NCBI GenBank assembly: GCA_017760785.1
Contig: GCA_017760785.1_4320.1
DNA length: 46,166 bases
Source of the DNA: a phage
Reading direction: 5' to 3' (one strand)
The translations under genes were made by a program, and so were the position numbers. Positions 2,609 through 26,700 of the stretch are shown here, piece by piece (position 1 is the first letter of the stretch; every line of letters begins with the position of its first letter). A model generated the notes under the pieces. It had not been told where the DNA came from, searched no databases, and saw only the letters and a list, made by a program, of their open reading frames with translations.

Positions 2609-3024
2609 AAATTACAGATAAAGAAGATTACATTGAGTTTTACCCTGGGCCAGTAAAGTCTTGCCCGAAAGAGGATGAAGAACAAATCTTTTGCTCTGAT
2701 TGGGTTAAGTATAACTACCCAGATATGGTATTTTTCCACTGCGTGAATGAGGGAAAGAAAACCATTGGTCAAGCAAGAAAAGACCAGGCTAAGGGTCTTC
2801 TCAAGGGCGTATCAGACTGCGTATTTATGATTCCAGAGAAATACCGTGGCAACTACTCATTTGGAGCCATAGAGCTAAAGAGGGCTGGGAAAACACAGGC
2901 CATCCCAGTTAGTGATGAACAGAAGTCCTTCCTCAAAAGCGTAAGAGAATCAGGTGGCTTCGCCGCAGTGGCCTACGGGCGGGAGGGTTTTTTATCTGCG
3001 TTTAAAGAAATGATTTCAAAATAG
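2605..3024 (+). CDS. VRR-NUC-like PD-(D/E)xK nuclease
   Basis: ATGA overlap with helicase stop; D...ELK motif; 139 aa. Confidence 0.55.
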   Translation: MKITDKEDYIEFYPGPVKSCPKEDEEQIFCSDWVKYNYPDMVFFHCVNEGKKTIGQARKDQAKGLLKGVSDCVFMIPEKYRGNYSFGAIELKRAGKTQAIPVSDEQKSFLKSVRESGGFAAVAYGREGFLSAFKEMISK

Positions 3025-3064
3025 CACTAATTGCTAAAGACGTTTCGGTGAGTTGGTGTATTAT
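3022..3064 (+). promoter_or_regulatory. motif-type promoter (TAGCACTAATTGCTA, 22 bp, TATTAT)
   Basis: palindrome plus spaced -10; CATCGAAACGA leader follows. Confidence 0.55.
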
Positions 3065-8845: not shown

Positions 8846-10429
8846 TCACCCCAGCAATCGTGGATTAATGTAAACCTTATCACCAATCAGGCACGTATAG
8901 TTTTTCTCATCAAGCATTGGCAGTAAGTGATCTTTAATCTTCGTCATTACTCCAGCTTGGGCCTCGAATGGCTTAACTTTACGAGCAGCTTCATATAATG
9001 AACGAATGCCAACTACTCCCTTCCCATTTTTTCCTTGCTTGATCAGAATATCAATCAGCTTATTCATCTCGGCATTGTCTCCAGCGTGACCGGCGGCGTT
9101 AGCGGATGACAAATAAGTCTTACTCAGTTCCTGGAACATAATTACAGCTTCTTGCATGGTGTCGAGCTCAATCTCTCTGGATTTCTGTGGGCTCCCACCG
9201 TTATGGTTGAACCAGTTACGAACAGTATGAAGTACCGCCGCAATCCTGATGGCCTGCTTATCGAACTTACCCAGAGCGCCGCGCAACATTGTGTGTGAAT
9301 ACTTACCTCCGTCAGCAAGGTGCGGTTCCATTTCCTGGCGTGCTCTGTTGAGGTATTTCATTGCTGAGCTGCTGACTGTCAACTTTACTTCTTGCTCATT
9401 CATTATCTCATGAACTAATCGGAAGTAATCAGCCTTCAGCCCTCCGTCGATAGGCTCGTAAGTTGAATCTCCATTCTCGTCAACGAATACACGCTCGCCC
9501 AGGAATGACTTTTCACGTACAAGCAGGAAACGTTCCGATACACCGATACCTCGCGCACCAGCATTCATGATCGCATTGATTGTCTCATCCTGCGCAATTA
9601 CAGATATACAGCCCATGGCAACGAAACTCATGTTGTTTTCAGCGTTGGCGCGCGCGATAGATACGTTACCCGCATCCCATGCCTTGAGCACGAGCTCGCT
9701 GTTGGTCTTCTTCGAGCCGTCACCGTAAGTCATTCCCAATAGTGAGTTGACGCTCGTTGCCTCATCCGAGATAACCGCAAAGTTGCCCTGGCGGTTGTTT
9801 ATTCGCGCAAGACCTTCAGGTGTGGTATCTGACACTGGAAATACGATATCGCAAAGTTTCTCTAGCTTTTCCTCAAGTTCCTCTTTCTCCTCGAATAGGG
9901 AGGCCATCTCTGACGGAGATTTTTCCTGCTTCATCTCTTTGGATAATGCAGATAGCTTAGCCATAATCTTTTTTCGCTCACGCTTTCGCACTTCATTCAG
10001 CCGCTCAGTCTCGGCAATCATTGGAGCAATGGAGAGTGAGTTAATTGCTGATTTACCAGTCGATGGTGGCTGACTGGTCACGACGTACAAAGAGGTTGGC
10101 TGCTGGGTCCCGTGATACTCAACAGTAAAGCGGCCCAGCATTGCAGCGGAAACACACCCCAGGAAGTGCATGTATGCGGATGACTCAGGAAACTGAACTG
10201 AACGAGCAATGTTGGCTGACAGTTTTCCAACAACATCAATATCATTGCCGAGTGAGATTACAGGATATTTGTCATTTGCAGCATCAATCTCTACTGGCGC
10301 TTTCCAGAATGATTGAGACTGACGATAGCCATTAGCATTAATAGCGACGCGCAAAGGTGGGAGGTTGTCTGCGGAAGCGATTGCCATAACCTGTTCAATA
10401 GATAGTTTATCTTCGTTGAAATCGAACAT
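8846..10429 (-). CDS. P-loop NTPase, DUF3987-like (assignment uncertain)
   Basis: Walker A-like PPSTGKS; GGAGA SD before ATG 10429; own motif promoter; 527 aa. Confidence 0.6.
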   Translation of the reverse strand: MFDFNEDKLSIEQVMAIASADNLPPLRVAINANGYRQSQSFWKAPVEIDAANDKYPVISLGNDIDVVGKLSANIARSVQFPESSAYMHFLGCVSAAMLGRFTVEYHGTQQPTSLYVVTSQPPSTGKSAINSLSIAPMIAETERLNEVRKRERKKIMAKLSALSKEMKQEKSPSEMASLFEEKEELEEKLEKLCDIVFPVSDTTPEGLARINNRQGNFAVISDEATSVNSLLGMTYGDGSKKTNSELVLKAWDAGNVSIARANAENNMSFVAMGCISVIAQDETINAIMNAGARGIGVSERFLLVREKSFLGERVFVDENGDSTYEPIDGGLKADYFRLVHEIMNEQEVKLTVSSSAMKYLNRARQEMEPHLADGGKYSHTMLRGALGKFDKQAIRIAAVLHTVRNWFNHNGGSPQKSREIELDTMQEAVIMFQELSKTYLSSANAAGHAGDNAEMNKLIDILIKQGKNGKGVVGIRSLYEAARKVKPFEAQAGVMTKIKDHLLPMLDEKNYTCLIGDKVYINPRLLG

Positions 10430-11050: not shown

Positions 11051-11093
11051 ACTATACAACAAAAGCACCGAAGGGCTTTAGCAATTAGTGCTA
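11051..11093 (-). promoter_or_regulatory. motif-type promoter (TAGCACTAATTGCTAA, 21 bp, TATAGT)
   Basis: minus strand; CATCGAAACGA leader follows. Confidence 0.55.
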
Positions 11094-11471
11094 TACGCCA
11101 TAATCTATCTTAACCAGTTTCCCTTTGTAGTATCCAAAGTTCTTTGGAAAAGCGTCGTACTCAAAGAAATCACGGTCAAGCGTTCTATATTCATCATTAT
11201 CAACGTCATCATATAGCTTTTGCAGGTCGGATTTAAAAAGCTCCTCATTATCAACTGGCTCAGCCTTATGCATCACAACCATTAGGCCGAACCTGTTTGA
11301 GTATGCTATTGGGCACAGGTTCTTGTTATCAACCCCCTTCCATTGGCCCTCAGTCATGTTGCTGAGCATCCCCTGCACAAAGGCCTTCCAGGAATTAAAT
11401 CTCGGGAACTTAATCGCATACTTTTTTGTGATTAGTACAAGCCTGGTCCCACCACTTCTATTTAGTTTCAT
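11091..11471 (-). CDS. hypothetical protein
   Basis: 126-aa ORF with AAGGA SD; stop lies in TAGCAC motif. Confidence 0.5.
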   Translation of the reverse strand: MKLNRSGGTRLVLITKKYAIKFPRFNSWKAFVQGMLSNMTEGQWKGVDNKNLCPIAYSNRFGLMVVMHKAEPVDNEELFKSDLQKLYDDVDNDEYRTLDRDFFEYDAFPKNFGYYKGKLVKIDYGV

Positions 11472-11616
11472 TCCTTGCCTTCTCTATCGCCTTCAGCATA
11501 ATCTCGTGAGACTCAAGCAAGTCTTCGCGGAACCAGTCACCGCATGGCCAGCCTTTTCCGCTGTAGGCGCTTACTACCTCAAGGTCGAAGTAATTTATCT
11601 CAGATGGTAGTAGCAT
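11458..11616 (-). CDS. hypothetical 52-aa protein
   Basis: hand-translated ORF filling a gap between minus-strand genes. Confidence 0.3.
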   Translation of the reverse strand: MLLPSEINYFDLEVVSAYSGKGWPCGDWFREDLLESHEIMLKAIEKARNETK

Positions 11617-11619
11617 CTT

Positions 11620-11811
11620 TTACGCCTCCATAATGTATTCAAACTCGGATGTAAACAATGGAAGATCCCTTCCGGCAGGAGTCTTGATACTAACCTCGCC
11701 CGACTCATACTGGTGAATAACTTCGTAAACTCCCCCGATCTCCACCCCGTAGAATTCTCTCTCGTATTTACCGTGTTTTGTTTGAAAGTTGATTAATTTA
11801 ATCTTCATCAT
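11620..11811 (-). CDS. small protein, paralogue of 12227-12421
   Basis: shares YG-x3-GGVYEV-x3-YE core with 12227-12421 product. Confidence 0.45.
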   Translation of the reverse strand: MMKIKLINFQTKHGKYEREFYGVEIGGVYEVIHQYESGEVSIKTPAGRDLPLFTSEFEYIMEA

Positions 11812-12047
11812 TTCACCTCATCAAAAGTTGCTATTCCAGGAATAAACATACCAACCTTCCAGCCAGTAATGGCAATCCAACCAGAATCGTGCTTGTGCGG
11901 TCGCTCAGCGCCATTAATCAACCATTCGTTAGGGATTACCTTCCCCTTAATGATTAGCGGCTCAGCGTCGTATACAGAGCCTTTAACGAATGGTGTTAAG
12001 GCTTTCTTGTCAGTGCTGGTAATGCAGTTAGTGCAGCGAATTTTCAT
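11808..12047 (-). CDS. hypothetical small protein
   Basis: ORF; overlap with neighbouring gene. Confidence 0.45.
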   Translation of the reverse strand: MKIRCTNCITSTDKKALTPFVKGSVYDAEPLIIKGKVIPNEWLINGAERPHKHDSGWIAITGWKVGMFIPGIATFDEVK

Positions 12048-12057
12048 ATCTCAATCC

Positions 12058-12237
12058 TCAAATAAATGGTAGGCACTCTTCGCACCCAAGCCCATCACAG
12101 CACAGGAATTCATTCCCTGACTGGAATTTCTTAGCCAGGTCAATATCCAATTTTCCGCGCAACACAAGGTCAGTGTAATCTTCATTAAGCCCAATCAGTG
12201 TGCACTCGCGACGTAATTCATCTTTATCAATCTTCAT
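12058..12237 (-). CDS. hypothetical Cys-rich small protein
   Basis: C-terminal CCDGLGCEEC; start at internal ATG with GAGG SD. Confidence 0.4.
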   Translation of the reverse strand: MKIDKDELRRECTLIGLNEDYTDLVLRGKLDIDLAKKFQSGNEFLCCDGLGCEECLPFI

Positions 12238-12421
12238 AGATTTCAACCTCTCTATTGTAGAGCATAACATTACGGCCATACTTGTTAACCACTACAATTG
12301 CCTCAAGTTCAGCATAAGTAGTTACCACTTCATACACGCCGCCTTGATTGATGCCATAGTACTCATACACTTCATCATAAATATCACCACAGAAATCAAG
12401 CTCAATAACCTTTACTTTCAT
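12227..12421 (-). CDS. small protein, paralogue of 11620-11811
   Basis: first gene after minus-strand motif promoter at 12449-12492. Confidence 0.5.
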   Translation of the reverse strand: MKVKVIELDFCGDIYDEVYEYYGINQGGVYEVVTTYAELEAIVVVNKYGRNVMLYNREVEIYED

Positions 12422-12448
12422 ATCTATGTCCTCGTTGCTGATGAGCTA

Positions 12449-12492
12449 ACTATAGCGTCACCACATTAACATGTCTTTAGCAAAAAGTGCCA
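12449..12492 (-). promoter_or_regulatory. variant motif promoter (TGGCACTTTTTGCTAA, TATAGT)
   Basis: minus strand; drives 12227-12421. Confidence 0.5.
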
Positions 12493-12720
12493 TTCGTTAG
12501 ATTTATGGATTGTTGCAGATATTGAAATGATTAACATGATTATTGCACATATAGTAATATTGCTTCCGATGCAATGATTTTTTTGATTGTTGCGAAAAGT
12601 GAAATAAAGTGGTGAGTGAGTGAATGAAAGATGGATGGACTACCATACAAGTTGATTTTGATTCTGTCCGAGCCGCTTTGCGTATACGCGTTATGAAAGT
12701 TATGCCGTGTAGATAAACCT

Positions 12721-13020
12721 TTCCGCGGAAATTCATCCACGCCGTACCACGCCAGGTTACGCCATAGTTACACTATAATATCTATATATAACAACCTCTT
12801 AGTATTATTATTATTATTATAAATATTACTATGTATATCATGTAACCAATATGCCGGAGGGGGTCGATAGTTTTTTCTATGAAAATGACAATTTCTATAT
12901 ATATAAGGATAGGTGTATACCCTCCGCGTTTTCCGCGGAAATTCATCTACAGGCAAATTACACGAGCTATAGCTGGGCTGGCACGCCAAAAAACGTAACC
13001 AGCGCCAATATAAACACAAG
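12721..13020. repeat. AT-rich divergent control element, copy 1
   Basis: 17-bp direct repeat TTCCGCGGAAATTCATC at 12721 and 12931; (TAT)6 at 12803-12820; ~70 percent identical to 39790-40110. Confidence 0.7.
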
Positions 13021-13096
13021 ATAACACTTGATAACGTGTAGACGTGTGTTATTATGGGTTCACCTTAACGAATGGGAACCAATCAGGAGTAATAAA

Positions 13097-15615: not shown

Positions 15616-15754
15616 TTTACATTCACACATACTACACAGGCAAGTTCAACAGCGTTAGCATGTTCGGCTACATGAGAAGAAGAGCGATGCGATTAAGCAA
15701 TATGAGGTTCTTGGAGGTGTAGTTATTGAGGCAATGAAAACACAAAACATTAAA

Positions 15755-15797
15755 TAGCGCGAATTGCTAAAACAGAATCGGGGTAATTTGGTATAGT
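15755..15797 (+). promoter_or_regulatory. motif-type promoter (TAGCGCGAATTGCTAA, TGgTATAGT)
   Basis: CCATCGAAACGAA leader follows. Confidence 0.6.
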
Positions 15798-15827: not shown

Positions 15828-16040
15828 ATGAAAATTGAAATTATCGACGTGGACTACAGACCAGAGGTAGACGTACTGACTCTTGGTGAGTGTGGATTTG
15901 AAGTTGGCGACGTAGTTGAAGTGTCCGGTCACTACGTTGATGGCAACCTTTTAATCCAGGCTATCCGTGGTAATGAGTTCGTGAGTGTAGGAAATGAAGT
16001 AAGCGCAAGCGAGCATGAATATAAGGTGGTTGAGGAATGA
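15828..16040 (+). CDS. hypothetical protein
   Basis: ORF after motif promoter at 15755. Confidence 0.45.
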   Translation: MKIEIIDVDYRPEVDVLTLGECGFEVGDVVEVSGHYVDGNLLIQAIRGNEFVSVGNEVSASEHEYKVVEE

Positions 16041-16393: not shown

Positions 16394-16533
16394 GCTTCAC
16401 TGAATACGTGATCGCATGTGAACGACTGGTCTTTGATATGAAGGCTTTTCACTGGTTCATCATTAAGGATTTAATCAAGCCGTACAAGCAAGGCGTGACA
16501 CCTGAGGCTTTTGTTAAGTCATTCTATAAATAG
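16390..16533 (+). CDS. hypothetical 47-aa protein
   Basis: ATGA overlap with previous ORF; ends in TAG of motif at 16531. Confidence 0.35.
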   Translation: MSFTEYVIACERLVFDMKAFHWFIIKDLIKPYKQGVTPEAFVKSFYK

Positions 16534-16573
16534 CACTAATTGCTAAACGTAGTTGCCACGGATGGCATATAAT
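16531..16573 (+). promoter_or_regulatory. motif-type promoter (TAGCACTAATTGCTAA, TATAAT)
   Basis: standard spacing before 16604 ORF. Confidence 0.55.
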
Positions 16574-26652: not shown

Positions 26653-26657
26653 TTGCG

Positions 26658-26700
26658 TAGCACTTTTTGATAAATCACTTATTCAACTTTGATGTATAGT
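26658..26700 (+). promoter_or_regulatory. motif-type promoter (TAGCACTTTTTGATAA, TATAGT)
   Basis: drives moron 26734-26982; CATCGAAACGAAA leader. Confidence 0.55.

What the first reader, a model, noticed from the sequence alone, without database searches (positions are those of the whole stretch)
11620..12421. Duplicated small-protein family within the leftward block
The 63-aa product of 11620-11811 and the 64-aa product of 12227-12421 share a core (...REFYGVEIGGVYEVIHQYESGE... vs ...EYYGINQGGVYEVVTTYAELE...) and similar length, so they are paralogues about 600 bp apart. The copy at 12227 is the first gene after a motif promoter. Tandemly diversified small proteins in phage early regions are often host-interaction factors.
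Basis: seen in the sequence. Interest (0 to 1): 0.4.

Follow-up and report, generated by a model that had tools for sequence, protein, structure and literature searches.

The report
Paralogous acidic SH3-like phage miniproteins
Two small genes about 600 bp apart in this T1-like E. coli phage are real, anciently diverged copies of one rare family of tiny acidic barrel-shaped proteins that related phages carry in 0 to 3 copies; their function is untested, and a role in binding host proteins is only my best guess.

Summary
Observation confirmed. The 63-aa (11620-11811, -) and 64-aa (12227-12421, -) ORFs are homologous along their whole length: BLASTP 35% identity, E=2e-9; shuffle z=10.8; the parts outside the core each reach p~0.01. 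Both match PHROG 14327 (unknown function).

The window is a Braunvirinae (Drexlerviridae, T1-like) coliphage. Both genes sit in one leftward six-gene operon. It starts 72 nt after a copy of the published Drexlerviridae repeat ATAGCACnnnTTGnTAAAA. They are not tandem: two unrelated genes lie between them.

The family is tiny, with 7 small-protein clusters among 1.84 billion representatives. All members are acidic (pI 4.1-5.2) and the predicted fold is an SH3-like beta-barrel. It is accessory: about 20 phage records carry it, against 137 that carry the neighbouring 79-aa gene. Seven of 19 surveyed operons hold 2-3 copies.

Three clades each keep a fixed slot around the 79-aa gene. Copy A is under purifying selection (dN/dS ~0.11). 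Copy B shows dN/dS ~0.84 inside an unusually conserved DNA block.

A 70-aa ORF (15828-16040, +) is a probable remote third member. "Early" timing and host interaction remain untested. This is an ordinary, modestly interesting accessory family.

The parts
11620..11811 (-). Copy A (A-clade): 63 aa from the first ATG, 62 aa from ATG 11808. Acidic (pI 5.2) SH3-like miniprotein. Its start overlaps the stop of the 79-aa gene (ATGA).
12227..12421 (-). Copy B (B-clade): 64 aa, very acidic (net -8, pI 4.2). First gene of the operon.
   Evidence: ORF. phrog_14327 E=9.5e-19. Homologues 76-89% identical in metagenomes. The B'-type BFVD model of phage AHS24 superposes on the copy A model, TM 0.78. dN/dS ~0.84 at dS 0.03-0.15.
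12449..12493 (-). Promoter-like region ahead of copy B: Drexlerviridae repeat ATGGCACTTTTTGCTAAAG (12493-12475), AAGACA-17-TATAGT (-10-like hexamer at 12454-12449), then a leader and GAGGA before ATG 12421.
   Evidence: The repeat is published for TLS, T1, Rtp and Rogue1; its function is unresolved (PMC11447400).
12058..12237 (-). Intervening gene 1: 59-aa acidic protein with a Cys-rich C-terminus (CCDGLGCEEC), phrog_9053. Its start overlaps the end of copy B by 11 nt. Not a family member.
11808..12047 (-). Intervening gene 2: conserved basic 79-aa protein (pI 9.0), phrog_4448. It is the positional anchor of the family and is not homologous to it.
   Evidence: hhalign probability 0.5%. Present in 137 phage records. 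pI.
11091..11616 (-). Rest of the operon: a 52-aa gene (11458-11616, phrog_4548) and a 126-aa gene (11091-11471, phrog_4301). The operon ends at the next repeat motif (11094-11076).
15828..16040 (+). Probable remote third family member: 70 aa, very acidic (net -12), phrog_5684. Also the first gene after a repeat motif (15754-15772).
   Evidence: hmmsearch within the window E=0.009. hhalign profile-profile probability 92%, E=5.6e-7, aligned end to end. The AF2 model is five-stranded but only pLDDT 72. Its BFVD search did not retrieve phrog_14327 members, so the structural test is inconclusive.

Best explanation
SHOWN. The two ORFs are anciently diverged paralogues of a small, Drexlerviridae-restricted accessory family (PHROG 14327). 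Its members are ~57-64 aa, acidic, single-domain SH3-like beta-barrel proteins.

Both genes are co-oriented in one leftward six-gene block (B, 59 aa, 79 aa, A, 52 aa, 126 aa). The block is bounded by two copies of the Drexlerviridae repeat motif and lies between the large divergent intergenic region and the DUF3987 helicase module. That it is a single transcript is inferred from this layout.

The family has three clades, each with a fixed slot:
- The B-clade is the first gene.
- The C/D/F-clade lies immediately upstream of the conserved 79-aa gene.
- The A-clade lies immediately downstream of it, with overlapping stop and start codons.

Different phages carry different combinations, from 0 to 3 copies.

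INFERRED MECHANISM. Each paralogue is a stand-alone binding module that attaches stoichiometrically to a different host protein. The most probable targets are variable, nucleic-acid-binding defence or restriction proteins, which an acidic surface could occupy. The slot-specific paralogues would give a phage a combinatorial counter-defence set.

Copy A looks like a stable, constrained member. Copy B looks like a recently exchanged member that is changing at the amino-acid level.
For: - Paralogy.
- Rarity: only 7 small-protein clusters among 1.84e9 representatives.
- Accessory status: about 20 phage records carry a member, against 137 with the adjacent 79-aa gene.
- Copy number: 7 of 19 surveyed operons have 2-3 members, in different combinations.
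- Slots: three clades tied to three slots.
- Charge: all members are acidic, pI 4.05-5.24. This argues against nucleic-acid binding and for protein binding or mimicry.
- Selection on A: median dN/dS 0.11, so it is a real constrained protein.
- Selection on B: median dN/dS 0.84, with a minimum of 24 nonsynonymous and 7 synonymous changes. The neighbouring 79-aa gene shows 19 and 43 in the same contigs (Fisher p=2e-5).
- Where B varies: by my own mapping onto the secondary structure, about two thirds of the variable positions fall in inter-strand loops, which in SH3 domains form the ligand site.
- Precedent: phage phi47 Orf65 (TifA) is a small, very acidic, rapidly evolving protein with an SH3-like domain. 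It binds and inactivates type IV restriction enzymes (PMC11322646).
Against: - No functional datum exists for any member.
- There is no hit in Pfam, NCBIfam or PDB sequences.
- The SH3-like barrel is a generic fold that carries no specific function.
- Expression timing is unknown.
- Copy B's dN/dS near 1 fits relaxed constraint as well as diversifying selection. It rests on few, phylogenetically non-independent substitutions in a 64-codon gene.
- The tight positional coupling to the conserved basic 79-aa gene could instead point to a phage-internal partnership.
Confidence: 0.4

Rival explanations
1. Host-takeover factors. The proteins bind and inhibit conserved housekeeping host proteins (transcription, replication, division or nuclease control) rather than defence systems, and would be toxic when expressed alone.
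For: They have the same properties as known small acidic phage inhibitors: they are small, acidic, stand-alone domains placed first after promoter-like motifs. T1-type phages degrade host DNA by gene products that are still unidentified (PMC11447400).
Against: About 85% of phages that share this operon lack any detectable member. A core takeover function would be expected to be conserved. Diversified paralogues with presence/absence mosaicism fit variable targets better.
Confidence: 0.2
2. Phage-internal role. The acidic miniproteins are partners, chaperones or antagonists of the conserved basic 79-aa protein (phrog_4448), or of the adjacent replication and helicase module.
For: The A-clade always directly follows the 79-aa gene with an ATGA overlap, and the C/D/F-clade always directly precedes it. 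The charges are complementary, pI 9.0 against 4-5.
Against: The 79-aa gene occurs in 137 records, most of them without any family member, so it does not need them. The B-clade is not adjacent to it. Gene adjacency in phage operons is weak evidence of interaction.
Confidence: 0.15
3. Copy B is a decaying or functionless ORF. The B block is conserved for a DNA-level reason (a promoter-proximal, regulatory or packaging-related sequence) and the reading frame is drifting neutrally.
For: - Within the B-type clade, dN/dS is 0.6-1.2 in all six frames, so no frame looks coding.
- dS is only 0.03-0.15, while the neighbours in the same contigs show 0.4-0.6.
- Copy B plus about 250 nt upstream forms a block of 90-100% nucleotide identity. 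The first 50 nt of the gene are 96-100% identical.
Against: - The ORF is intact, at 64-65 aa, in all 7 loci and 11 clusters.
- The only length change within the gene is an in-frame 4-aa duplication; the 75-aa CDS annotated in 2725-N35 is a C-terminal read-through extension.
- At greater depth (B against B' at 56%, B against A at 35%) the family-invariant residues and the predicted fold are kept while synonymous sites are saturated.
- There is no Rfam match.
- The antisense ORF 12200-12469 is broken in relatives.
Confidence: 0.1
4. Nucleic-acid-binding barrels (KOW, Sm or Tudor-like) that act on phage RNA or DNA, for example in antitermination or RNA chaperoning.
Against: All members are strongly acidic, with net charge from -3 to -8 (-12 for the putative 70-aa remote member) and few basic residues. 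There is no sequence match to KOW or Sm families.
Confidence: 0.05

Closest known systems
PHROG 14327 (phage orthologous group, function unknown)
   Same: Both window proteins match the profile over its full length (63 positions) with significant E-values. So do the C-type relatives.
   Different: The PHROG entry has no function, no structure and no note of paralogy. Here the family resolves into three slot-specific clades, multi-copy operons and contrasting selection regimes.
SH3-like small beta-barrel folds (eukaryotic SH3, KOW, integrase C-terminal domain; UniProt labels the 2725-N35 C-type protein 'PRC-barrel domain-containing')
   Different: No sequence membership in any Pfam SH3, PRC or KOW family, nor in DUF4314. 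Identity to the structural hits is 2-17%. A short helix replaces the RT-loop region. These are stand-alone proteins rather than domains of larger proteins.
TifA / Orf65 of Enterococcus phage phi47 (inhibitor of type IV restriction enzymes)
   Same: A small phage accessory protein with an SH3-like domain and an unusually acidic surface (21% D+E, against 16-23% here). It evolves rapidly and acts by directly binding a defence nuclease (PMC11322646).
   Different: Orf65 has two domains and comes from an unrelated Gram-positive phage. I did not test sequence relationship. Nothing shows that the window proteins bind restriction enzymes. This is an analogy of mechanism only.
PHROG 5684 (70-aa Drexlerviridae protein, here 15828-16040)
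   Same: Remote homology to the family by profile-profile comparison (probability 92%, E=5.6e-7, end to end). It shares the N-terminal MK(I/V)x(I/V)I start, is acidic and is the first gene after a repeat motif.
   Different: It is much more widespread (85 clusters), lies in the rightward block and has a longer distal region. Its structural similarity could not be confirmed.

Membership tests
PHROG 14327 | Significant full-length match to the family profile HMM | tested here: met
   Copy A: E=2.2e-9, residues 2-59 against profile positions 1-60 of 63. Copy B: E=9.5e-19, residues 1-64 against 1-63 of 63.
PHROG 14327 | The two window proteins are homologous to each other beyond a short motif | tested here: met
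   BLASTP E=2e-9 over 60 aa. Shuffle z=10.8. The flanks outside the core each reach p~0.01.
SH3-like small beta-barrel (fold level) | Five-stranded, partly open barrel of about 60 residues that superposes on solved SH3-type domains | tested here: met
Canonical SH3 domain families (Pfam SH3_1, SH3_2 and others), PRC-barrel (PF05239), DUF4314 | Sequence match to the Pfam model at or near the gathering score | tested here: not met
   No Pfam hit for either protein at E<=1. None of 13 family members hits these families at E<=10. The PDB sequence profile search gives only E=0.088 or worse.
Phage anti-defence proteins (functional class) | Accessory, patchy distribution with diversified variants among close relatives | tested here: met
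   About 20 records against 137 that share the operon. Copy number runs from 0 to 3 in different combinations.
Phage anti-defence proteins (functional class) | Evidence of diversifying selection | tested here: inconclusive
   Copy B has median dN/dS 0.84, against 0.11-0.18 for its neighbours. The substitutions are few and non-independent, and relaxed constraint is not excluded. Copy A has dN/dS 0.11.
Phage anti-defence proteins (functional class) | Binds or inactivates a defined host defence system; rescues phage plating | not testable with these tools
   Needs deletion mutants, defence-strain panels and pull-down assays.
TifA (phi47 Orf65) family | Sequence or structural homology to Orf65 | not tested
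   I had no Orf65 sequence or model available. The resemblance rests on the paper's description only.
Early phage genes | Transcription in the first minutes of infection | not testable with these tools
   The repeat motif precedes both accessory and structural operons. I found no Drexlerviridae time-course data.

The most novel reading that the evidence does not exclude
The three slot-specific clades (B; C/D/F; A), plus the remote 70-aa relative, form a previously unrecognised combinatorial arsenal of SH3-like miniprotein inhibitors in T1-like phages. Each would block a different host defence protein by acidic surface mimicry. Copy B would currently be under diversifying selection in the loops that form the SH3 ligand site, and would be spreading between phages by recombination together with its promoter block.
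Probability: 0.2. Interest if true: 0.6.

Novelty: new member of a known kind. Interest (0 to 1): 0.3.

Why it matters
Drexlerviridae (T1-like) phages are common laboratory and industrial contaminants and are also therapy candidates. Almost none of their small accessory genes has a known function.

This family is a compact and testable candidate for host or defence interaction:
- The proteins are about 60 aa and have a confident predicted fold.
- Natural 0-3-copy variants exist among otherwise similar phages, including members of the BASEL collection: JulesPiccard (Bas03) carries A only and JeanPiccard (Bas02) carries C only.
- The contrast between a constrained paralogue (A) and a fast-changing one (B) gives a built-in comparison.

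If the proteins prove to be defence inhibitors, they would add an SH3-like class to the anti-defence repertoire of coliphages. If not, the finding remains a routine annotation of a paralogous pair of unknown function.

Tried and rejected
- **Pfam, NCBIfam and PDB sequence searches** found no informative match.
- **IMG/VR scans** with copies A and B returned one locus, which is IME542 again, and none.
- **The afdb50 fold library** was unavailable.
- **The word-indexed protein search** found only close relatives. The exhaustive profile search added five more divergent small-protein clusters (P0023-P0027) and four long proteins. I inspected only one of the long proteins, P0031; it has three tandem copies of the domain and sits in an unrelated phage-like contig.
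- **Homology of the intervening 79-aa gene to the family** was rejected (hhalign probability 0.5%).
- **The antisense 89-aa ORF (12200-12469, +) covering copy B** was rejected as an explanation for B's low dS. It is interrupted in L018, Rogue1 and L017, and no frame looks coding-like.
- **A known RNA element in the conserved B block** was not found (Rfam, E<=1).
- **Structural confirmation of the 70-aa remote relative** was inconclusive. The model has pLDDT 72, and its BFVD search did not return phrog_14327 members.
- **Literature searches** for Drexlerviridae early transcription or for any function of these genes found nothing relevant.
- **A role as the binder of the palindromic repeat motif** was considered and rejected. 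The motif is family-wide, while these proteins are present in only a minority of phages and are acidic.

Full report
**What is there.** Copy A has two adjacent ATGs. The first (11811) overlaps the TGA of the upstream 79-aa gene. The second (11808) is the start used by most public gene calls, giving 62 aa. Copy B is preceded by GAGGA seven bases before its ATG.

**Is the similarity real?** Yes.
- BLASTP aligns residues 2-58 of A with 1-60 of B at 35% identity and 53% positives, E=2e-9.
- The Smith-Waterman score of 83 lies 10.8 sd above 5000 composition-preserving shuffles, whose maximum was 57.
- After removal of the 13-residue core (FYGVEIGGVYEVI / YYGINQGGVYEVV), the N-terminal and C-terminal remainders are each still significant, at 47 and 61 of 5000 shuffles.
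- Independently, both proteins match the same family profile, PHROG 14327 (function unknown), over its whole length, with E=2.2e-9 and 9.5e-19.

**Genomic setting.** The window is a T1-like siphovirus of E. coli in the Drexlerviridae, subfamily Braunvirinae. The nearest deposited genomes are IME542, JulesPiccard, 2725-N35 and Rtp, at 82-88% identity over parts of this region.

The two genes lie in one co-oriented block: B (12421-12227), a 59-aa Cys-rich gene (12237-12058, phrog_9053), a conserved basic 79-aa gene (12047-11808, phrog_4448), A, a 52-aa gene and a 126-aa gene. The block runs leftward from the roughly 560-bp divergent intergenic region towards the DUF3987-type helicase gene at 8846-10429.

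The copies are therefore not tandem. Two unrelated genes separate them, and hhalign gives the 79-aa protein a 0.5% probability of homology to the family.

**The 'motif promoter'.** The 19-nt pattern ATRGCACTnnTTGCTAAAG occurs 17 times in the window with up to 3 mismatches, against 0.41 expected, and always in the direction of the downstream genes. It is followed about 20 nt later by a TATAGT or TATAAT-like hexamer, then a conserved leader (cTCATCGAAACGAA), a Shine-Dalgarno sequence and an ATG.

One copy lies at 12493-12475, 72 nt before the ATG of B. The next leftward copy, at 11094-11076, ends the block.

The element is already published. Phage TLS has 21 copies of aaATAGCACnnnTTGnTAAAA about 76 nt upstream of start codons, and the element is also noted in T1, Rtp and Rogue1. 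Its role (UP element, enhancer or 'stoperator') is unresolved (PMC11447400).

In this window it also precedes tail-gene operons (26657, 30669, 32365), so it does not mark early genes.

**Size and spread of the family.**
- The word-indexed search of 5.8 billion proteins found only close relatives: 11 clusters for B at 76-89% identity and 9 for A at 66-100%.
- An exhaustive HMMER search of 1.84 billion cluster representatives with a profile of both types found only seven small-protein clusters (57-64 aa). It also found a 273-aa protein with three tandem copies of the domain, which lies in an unrelated phage-like metagenomic contig.
- tblastn against 50,697 phage records found the A-type in JulesPiccard, IME542 and 2725-N35.
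- It found the B-type in 2725-N35 (86%) and in the Rogue1 group (56%).
- It found a 57-aa C-type in 2725-N35, BEK2, BEK3, A110b and JeanPiccard, and a divergent copy in G8.
- That makes about 20 records (roughly 15 distinct phages), against 137 records that carry the adjacent 79-aa gene. The figure is a lower bound, because 60-aa queries miss divergent members.

**Copy number and slots.** I scanned 18 related operons plus the window with the family HMM in six frames. Seven of the 19 carry two or three members:
- the window (B + A);
- 2725-N35 (B + C + A);
- G8 (D + E);
- three metagenomic contigs (B + F);
- one contig with B' + A.

An all-against-all comparison gives three clades. The B-clade (B, B', P0022, P0024) was the first gene of the block in every operon where I saw it. 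The C/D/F-clade was always immediately upstream of the 79-aa gene. The A-clade (A, P0023, P0025) was immediately downstream of it in four of the seven A-carrying operons, where the 79-aa gene is present (window, JulesPiccard, IME542, 2725-N35); the other three (L015-L017) have a 58- or 67-aa gene there instead. Clade assignments for P0022-P0025 rest on sequence only, since I did not see their loci.

Identity between clades is 25-42%. The duplication is therefore old, and phages differ by which slots are filled.

**Fold and chemistry.** AlphaFold2 with the family alignment gives a confident model of A: pLDDT 86.9, pTM 0.72, with five strands and one short helix.

In BFVD the best matches are the A-, B'- and C-type relatives (TM 0.73-0.88). 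The C-type is labelled PRC-barrel by UniProt, and a DUF4314 protein follows.

No Pfam, NCBIfam or PDB sequence match exists. All members are acidic, with pI 4.05-5.24. B carries 20% D+E and a net charge of -8.

**Selection.**
- A-type orthologues have median dN/dS 0.11 at dS 0.3-1.8, which marks a real, constrained protein.
- B-type orthologues behave differently. dS is only 0.03-0.15 and median dN/dS is 0.84.
- In the same contigs the neighbouring 59-aa and 79-aa genes show dS of about 0.58 and 0.44, and dN/dS of 0.18 and 0.11.
- The minimal change counts are 24 nonsynonymous to 7 synonymous for B, against 19 to 43 for the 79-aa gene (Fisher p=2e-5).
- Between the window and 2725-N35, dS is 0.055 for B but 0.59 for A, only 600 bp away.
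- B and about 250 nt upstream form a block of 90-100% nucleotide identity. This suggests either recent exchange of the block between phages or DNA-level constraint.
- No alternative frame looks coding, the antisense ORF 12200-12469 is broken in relatives, and there is no Rfam match.
- At greater depth (B against B', B against A) the ORF, the invariant residues and the fold are retained.
- By my own mapping, about two thirds of the variable B positions lie in inter-strand loops.

These statistics rest on few, non-independent substitutions and cannot separate diversifying selection from relaxed constraint.

**A possible third member.** The HMM also picks up the 70-aa ORF at 15828-16040 (+), with E=0.009 among 970 window ORFs. 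This ORF belongs to phrog_5684.

Profile-profile comparison of the two family alignments gives 92% probability, E=5.6e-7, aligned end to end. The ORF is acidic (net -12) and is also the first gene after a repeat motif (15754).

Its model is five-stranded but only pLDDT 72. A BFVD search with it did not return phrog_14327 proteins. I therefore treat it as probable but unconfirmed.

**Interpretation.** The following are shown:
- paralogy of the two ORFs;
- membership of PHROG 14327;
- an SH3-like predicted fold;
- acidity of all members;
- an accessory and combinatorial distribution;
- a layout, bounded by two repeat motifs, that implies one operon;
- contrasting substitution patterns in A and B.

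The function is inferred. I think the most likely mechanism is stoichiometric binding of host proteins by stand-alone barrel modules. The preferred targets are variable nucleic-acid-binding defence proteins, with different paralogues hitting different targets (confidence about 0.4 for the whole statement).

The closest mechanistic precedent is phi47 Orf65/TifA, a small, very acidic, fast-evolving protein with an SH3-like domain that inhibits type IV restriction enzymes (PMC11322646). That is an analogy, not tested homology.

The rivals are housekeeping host takeover, a phage-internal partnership with the basic 79-aa protein, decay of copy B, and nucleic-acid binding. Each is listed with its evidence.

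'Early region' is untested. I found no Drexlerviridae time-course data.

**Verdict.** The finding is a correct observation of an ordinary kind: a paralogous pair from a catalogued but uncharacterised phage family. The added value here is the fold, the three-slot organisation, the copy-number survey and the A/B selection contrast. Interest is modest at 0.3. It would rise if a defence target were found.

Noticed in passing
window, 17 sites, e.g. 3021-3039 (+), 11076-11094 (-), 12475-12493 (-), 16530-16548 (+), 26657-26675 (+): The repeat ATAGCACnnnTTGCTAAAG occurs 17 times against 0.41 expected, always co-oriented with the downstream genes. It contains an inverted repeat, TAGCA-N5-TGCTA, which is operator-like. 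A -10-like hexamer about 20 nt downstream and a conserved leader (cTCATCGAAACGAA) follow it. The repeat itself is published for TLS, T1, Rtp and Rogue1. The passages I read of that paper mention neither the palindrome nor the conserved leader.
   Followed up: partly
window 12227-12421 with its upstream region to about 12670, compared with 11620-11811: The two paralogues evolve very differently. B has dN/dS ~0.84 with very low dS inside a block of 90-100% conserved DNA that includes its promoter region. A, only 600 bp away, has dN/dS ~0.11 with a dS about ten times higher in the same pair of genomes (window against 2725-N35).
   Followed up: yes
window 15828-16040 (+): A 70-aa very acidic ORF (phrog_5684, widespread in Drexlerviridae) is a probable remote relative of the family (hhalign probability 92%). 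It is also the first gene after a repeat motif.
   Followed up: partly
window 12058-12237 (-): A 59-aa acidic protein with a C-terminal CC-x3-GC-x2-C motif. The motif residues between the cysteines vary among relatives (CCDGLGCEEC, CCGDWGCESC, CCSGEGCNRC). A homologue in phage UDF157lw appears to be the one annotated 'Fer2_BFD domain-containing', so this may be a metal-binding miniprotein.
   Followed up: no
window 12470-13028 (divergent intergenic region): Two copies of a 21-nt repeat, TTTCCGCGGAAATTCATC(C/T)AC, lie 210 bp apart at 12720-12740 and 12930-12950, each with the palindrome TTTCCGCGGAAA. Several short blocks are conserved at 84-96% among relatives, for example around 12771-12821. 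In Rtp and Rogue1 the deposited genome ends fall in or next to this region, so it may hold packaging or replication signals.
   Followed up: no
L013 3346-3837, L015 2048-2590, L016 4159-4656 (related contigs): HNH endonuclease genes (PF13392) are inserted at different places in this operon in different relatives. This fits with the region being a recombination and insertion hotspot.
   Followed up: no
L003 (phage 2725-N35) 5729-6104: The deposited B-type CDS is 75 aa because it reads through into what looks like a frameshifted remnant of the 59-aa gene. A C-type family member takes that gene's place.
   Followed up: partly
P0008, P0009 (metagenomic B-type homologues): An in-frame 4-residue duplication (DIYD-DIYD) lies in the loop after strand 1. 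It is the only length change within the gene seen in the B-type clade.
   Followed up: no
L019 5001-5822 (JGI metagenome contig): A 273-aa protein carries three tandem copies of the domain and a C-terminal coiled-coil-like tail. It is encoded among nucleotide-metabolism genes (ThyX, dNMP kinase, MazG, an exonuclease) of an unrelated phage-like contig. The match is marginal (E=4.9e-4).
   Followed up: partly
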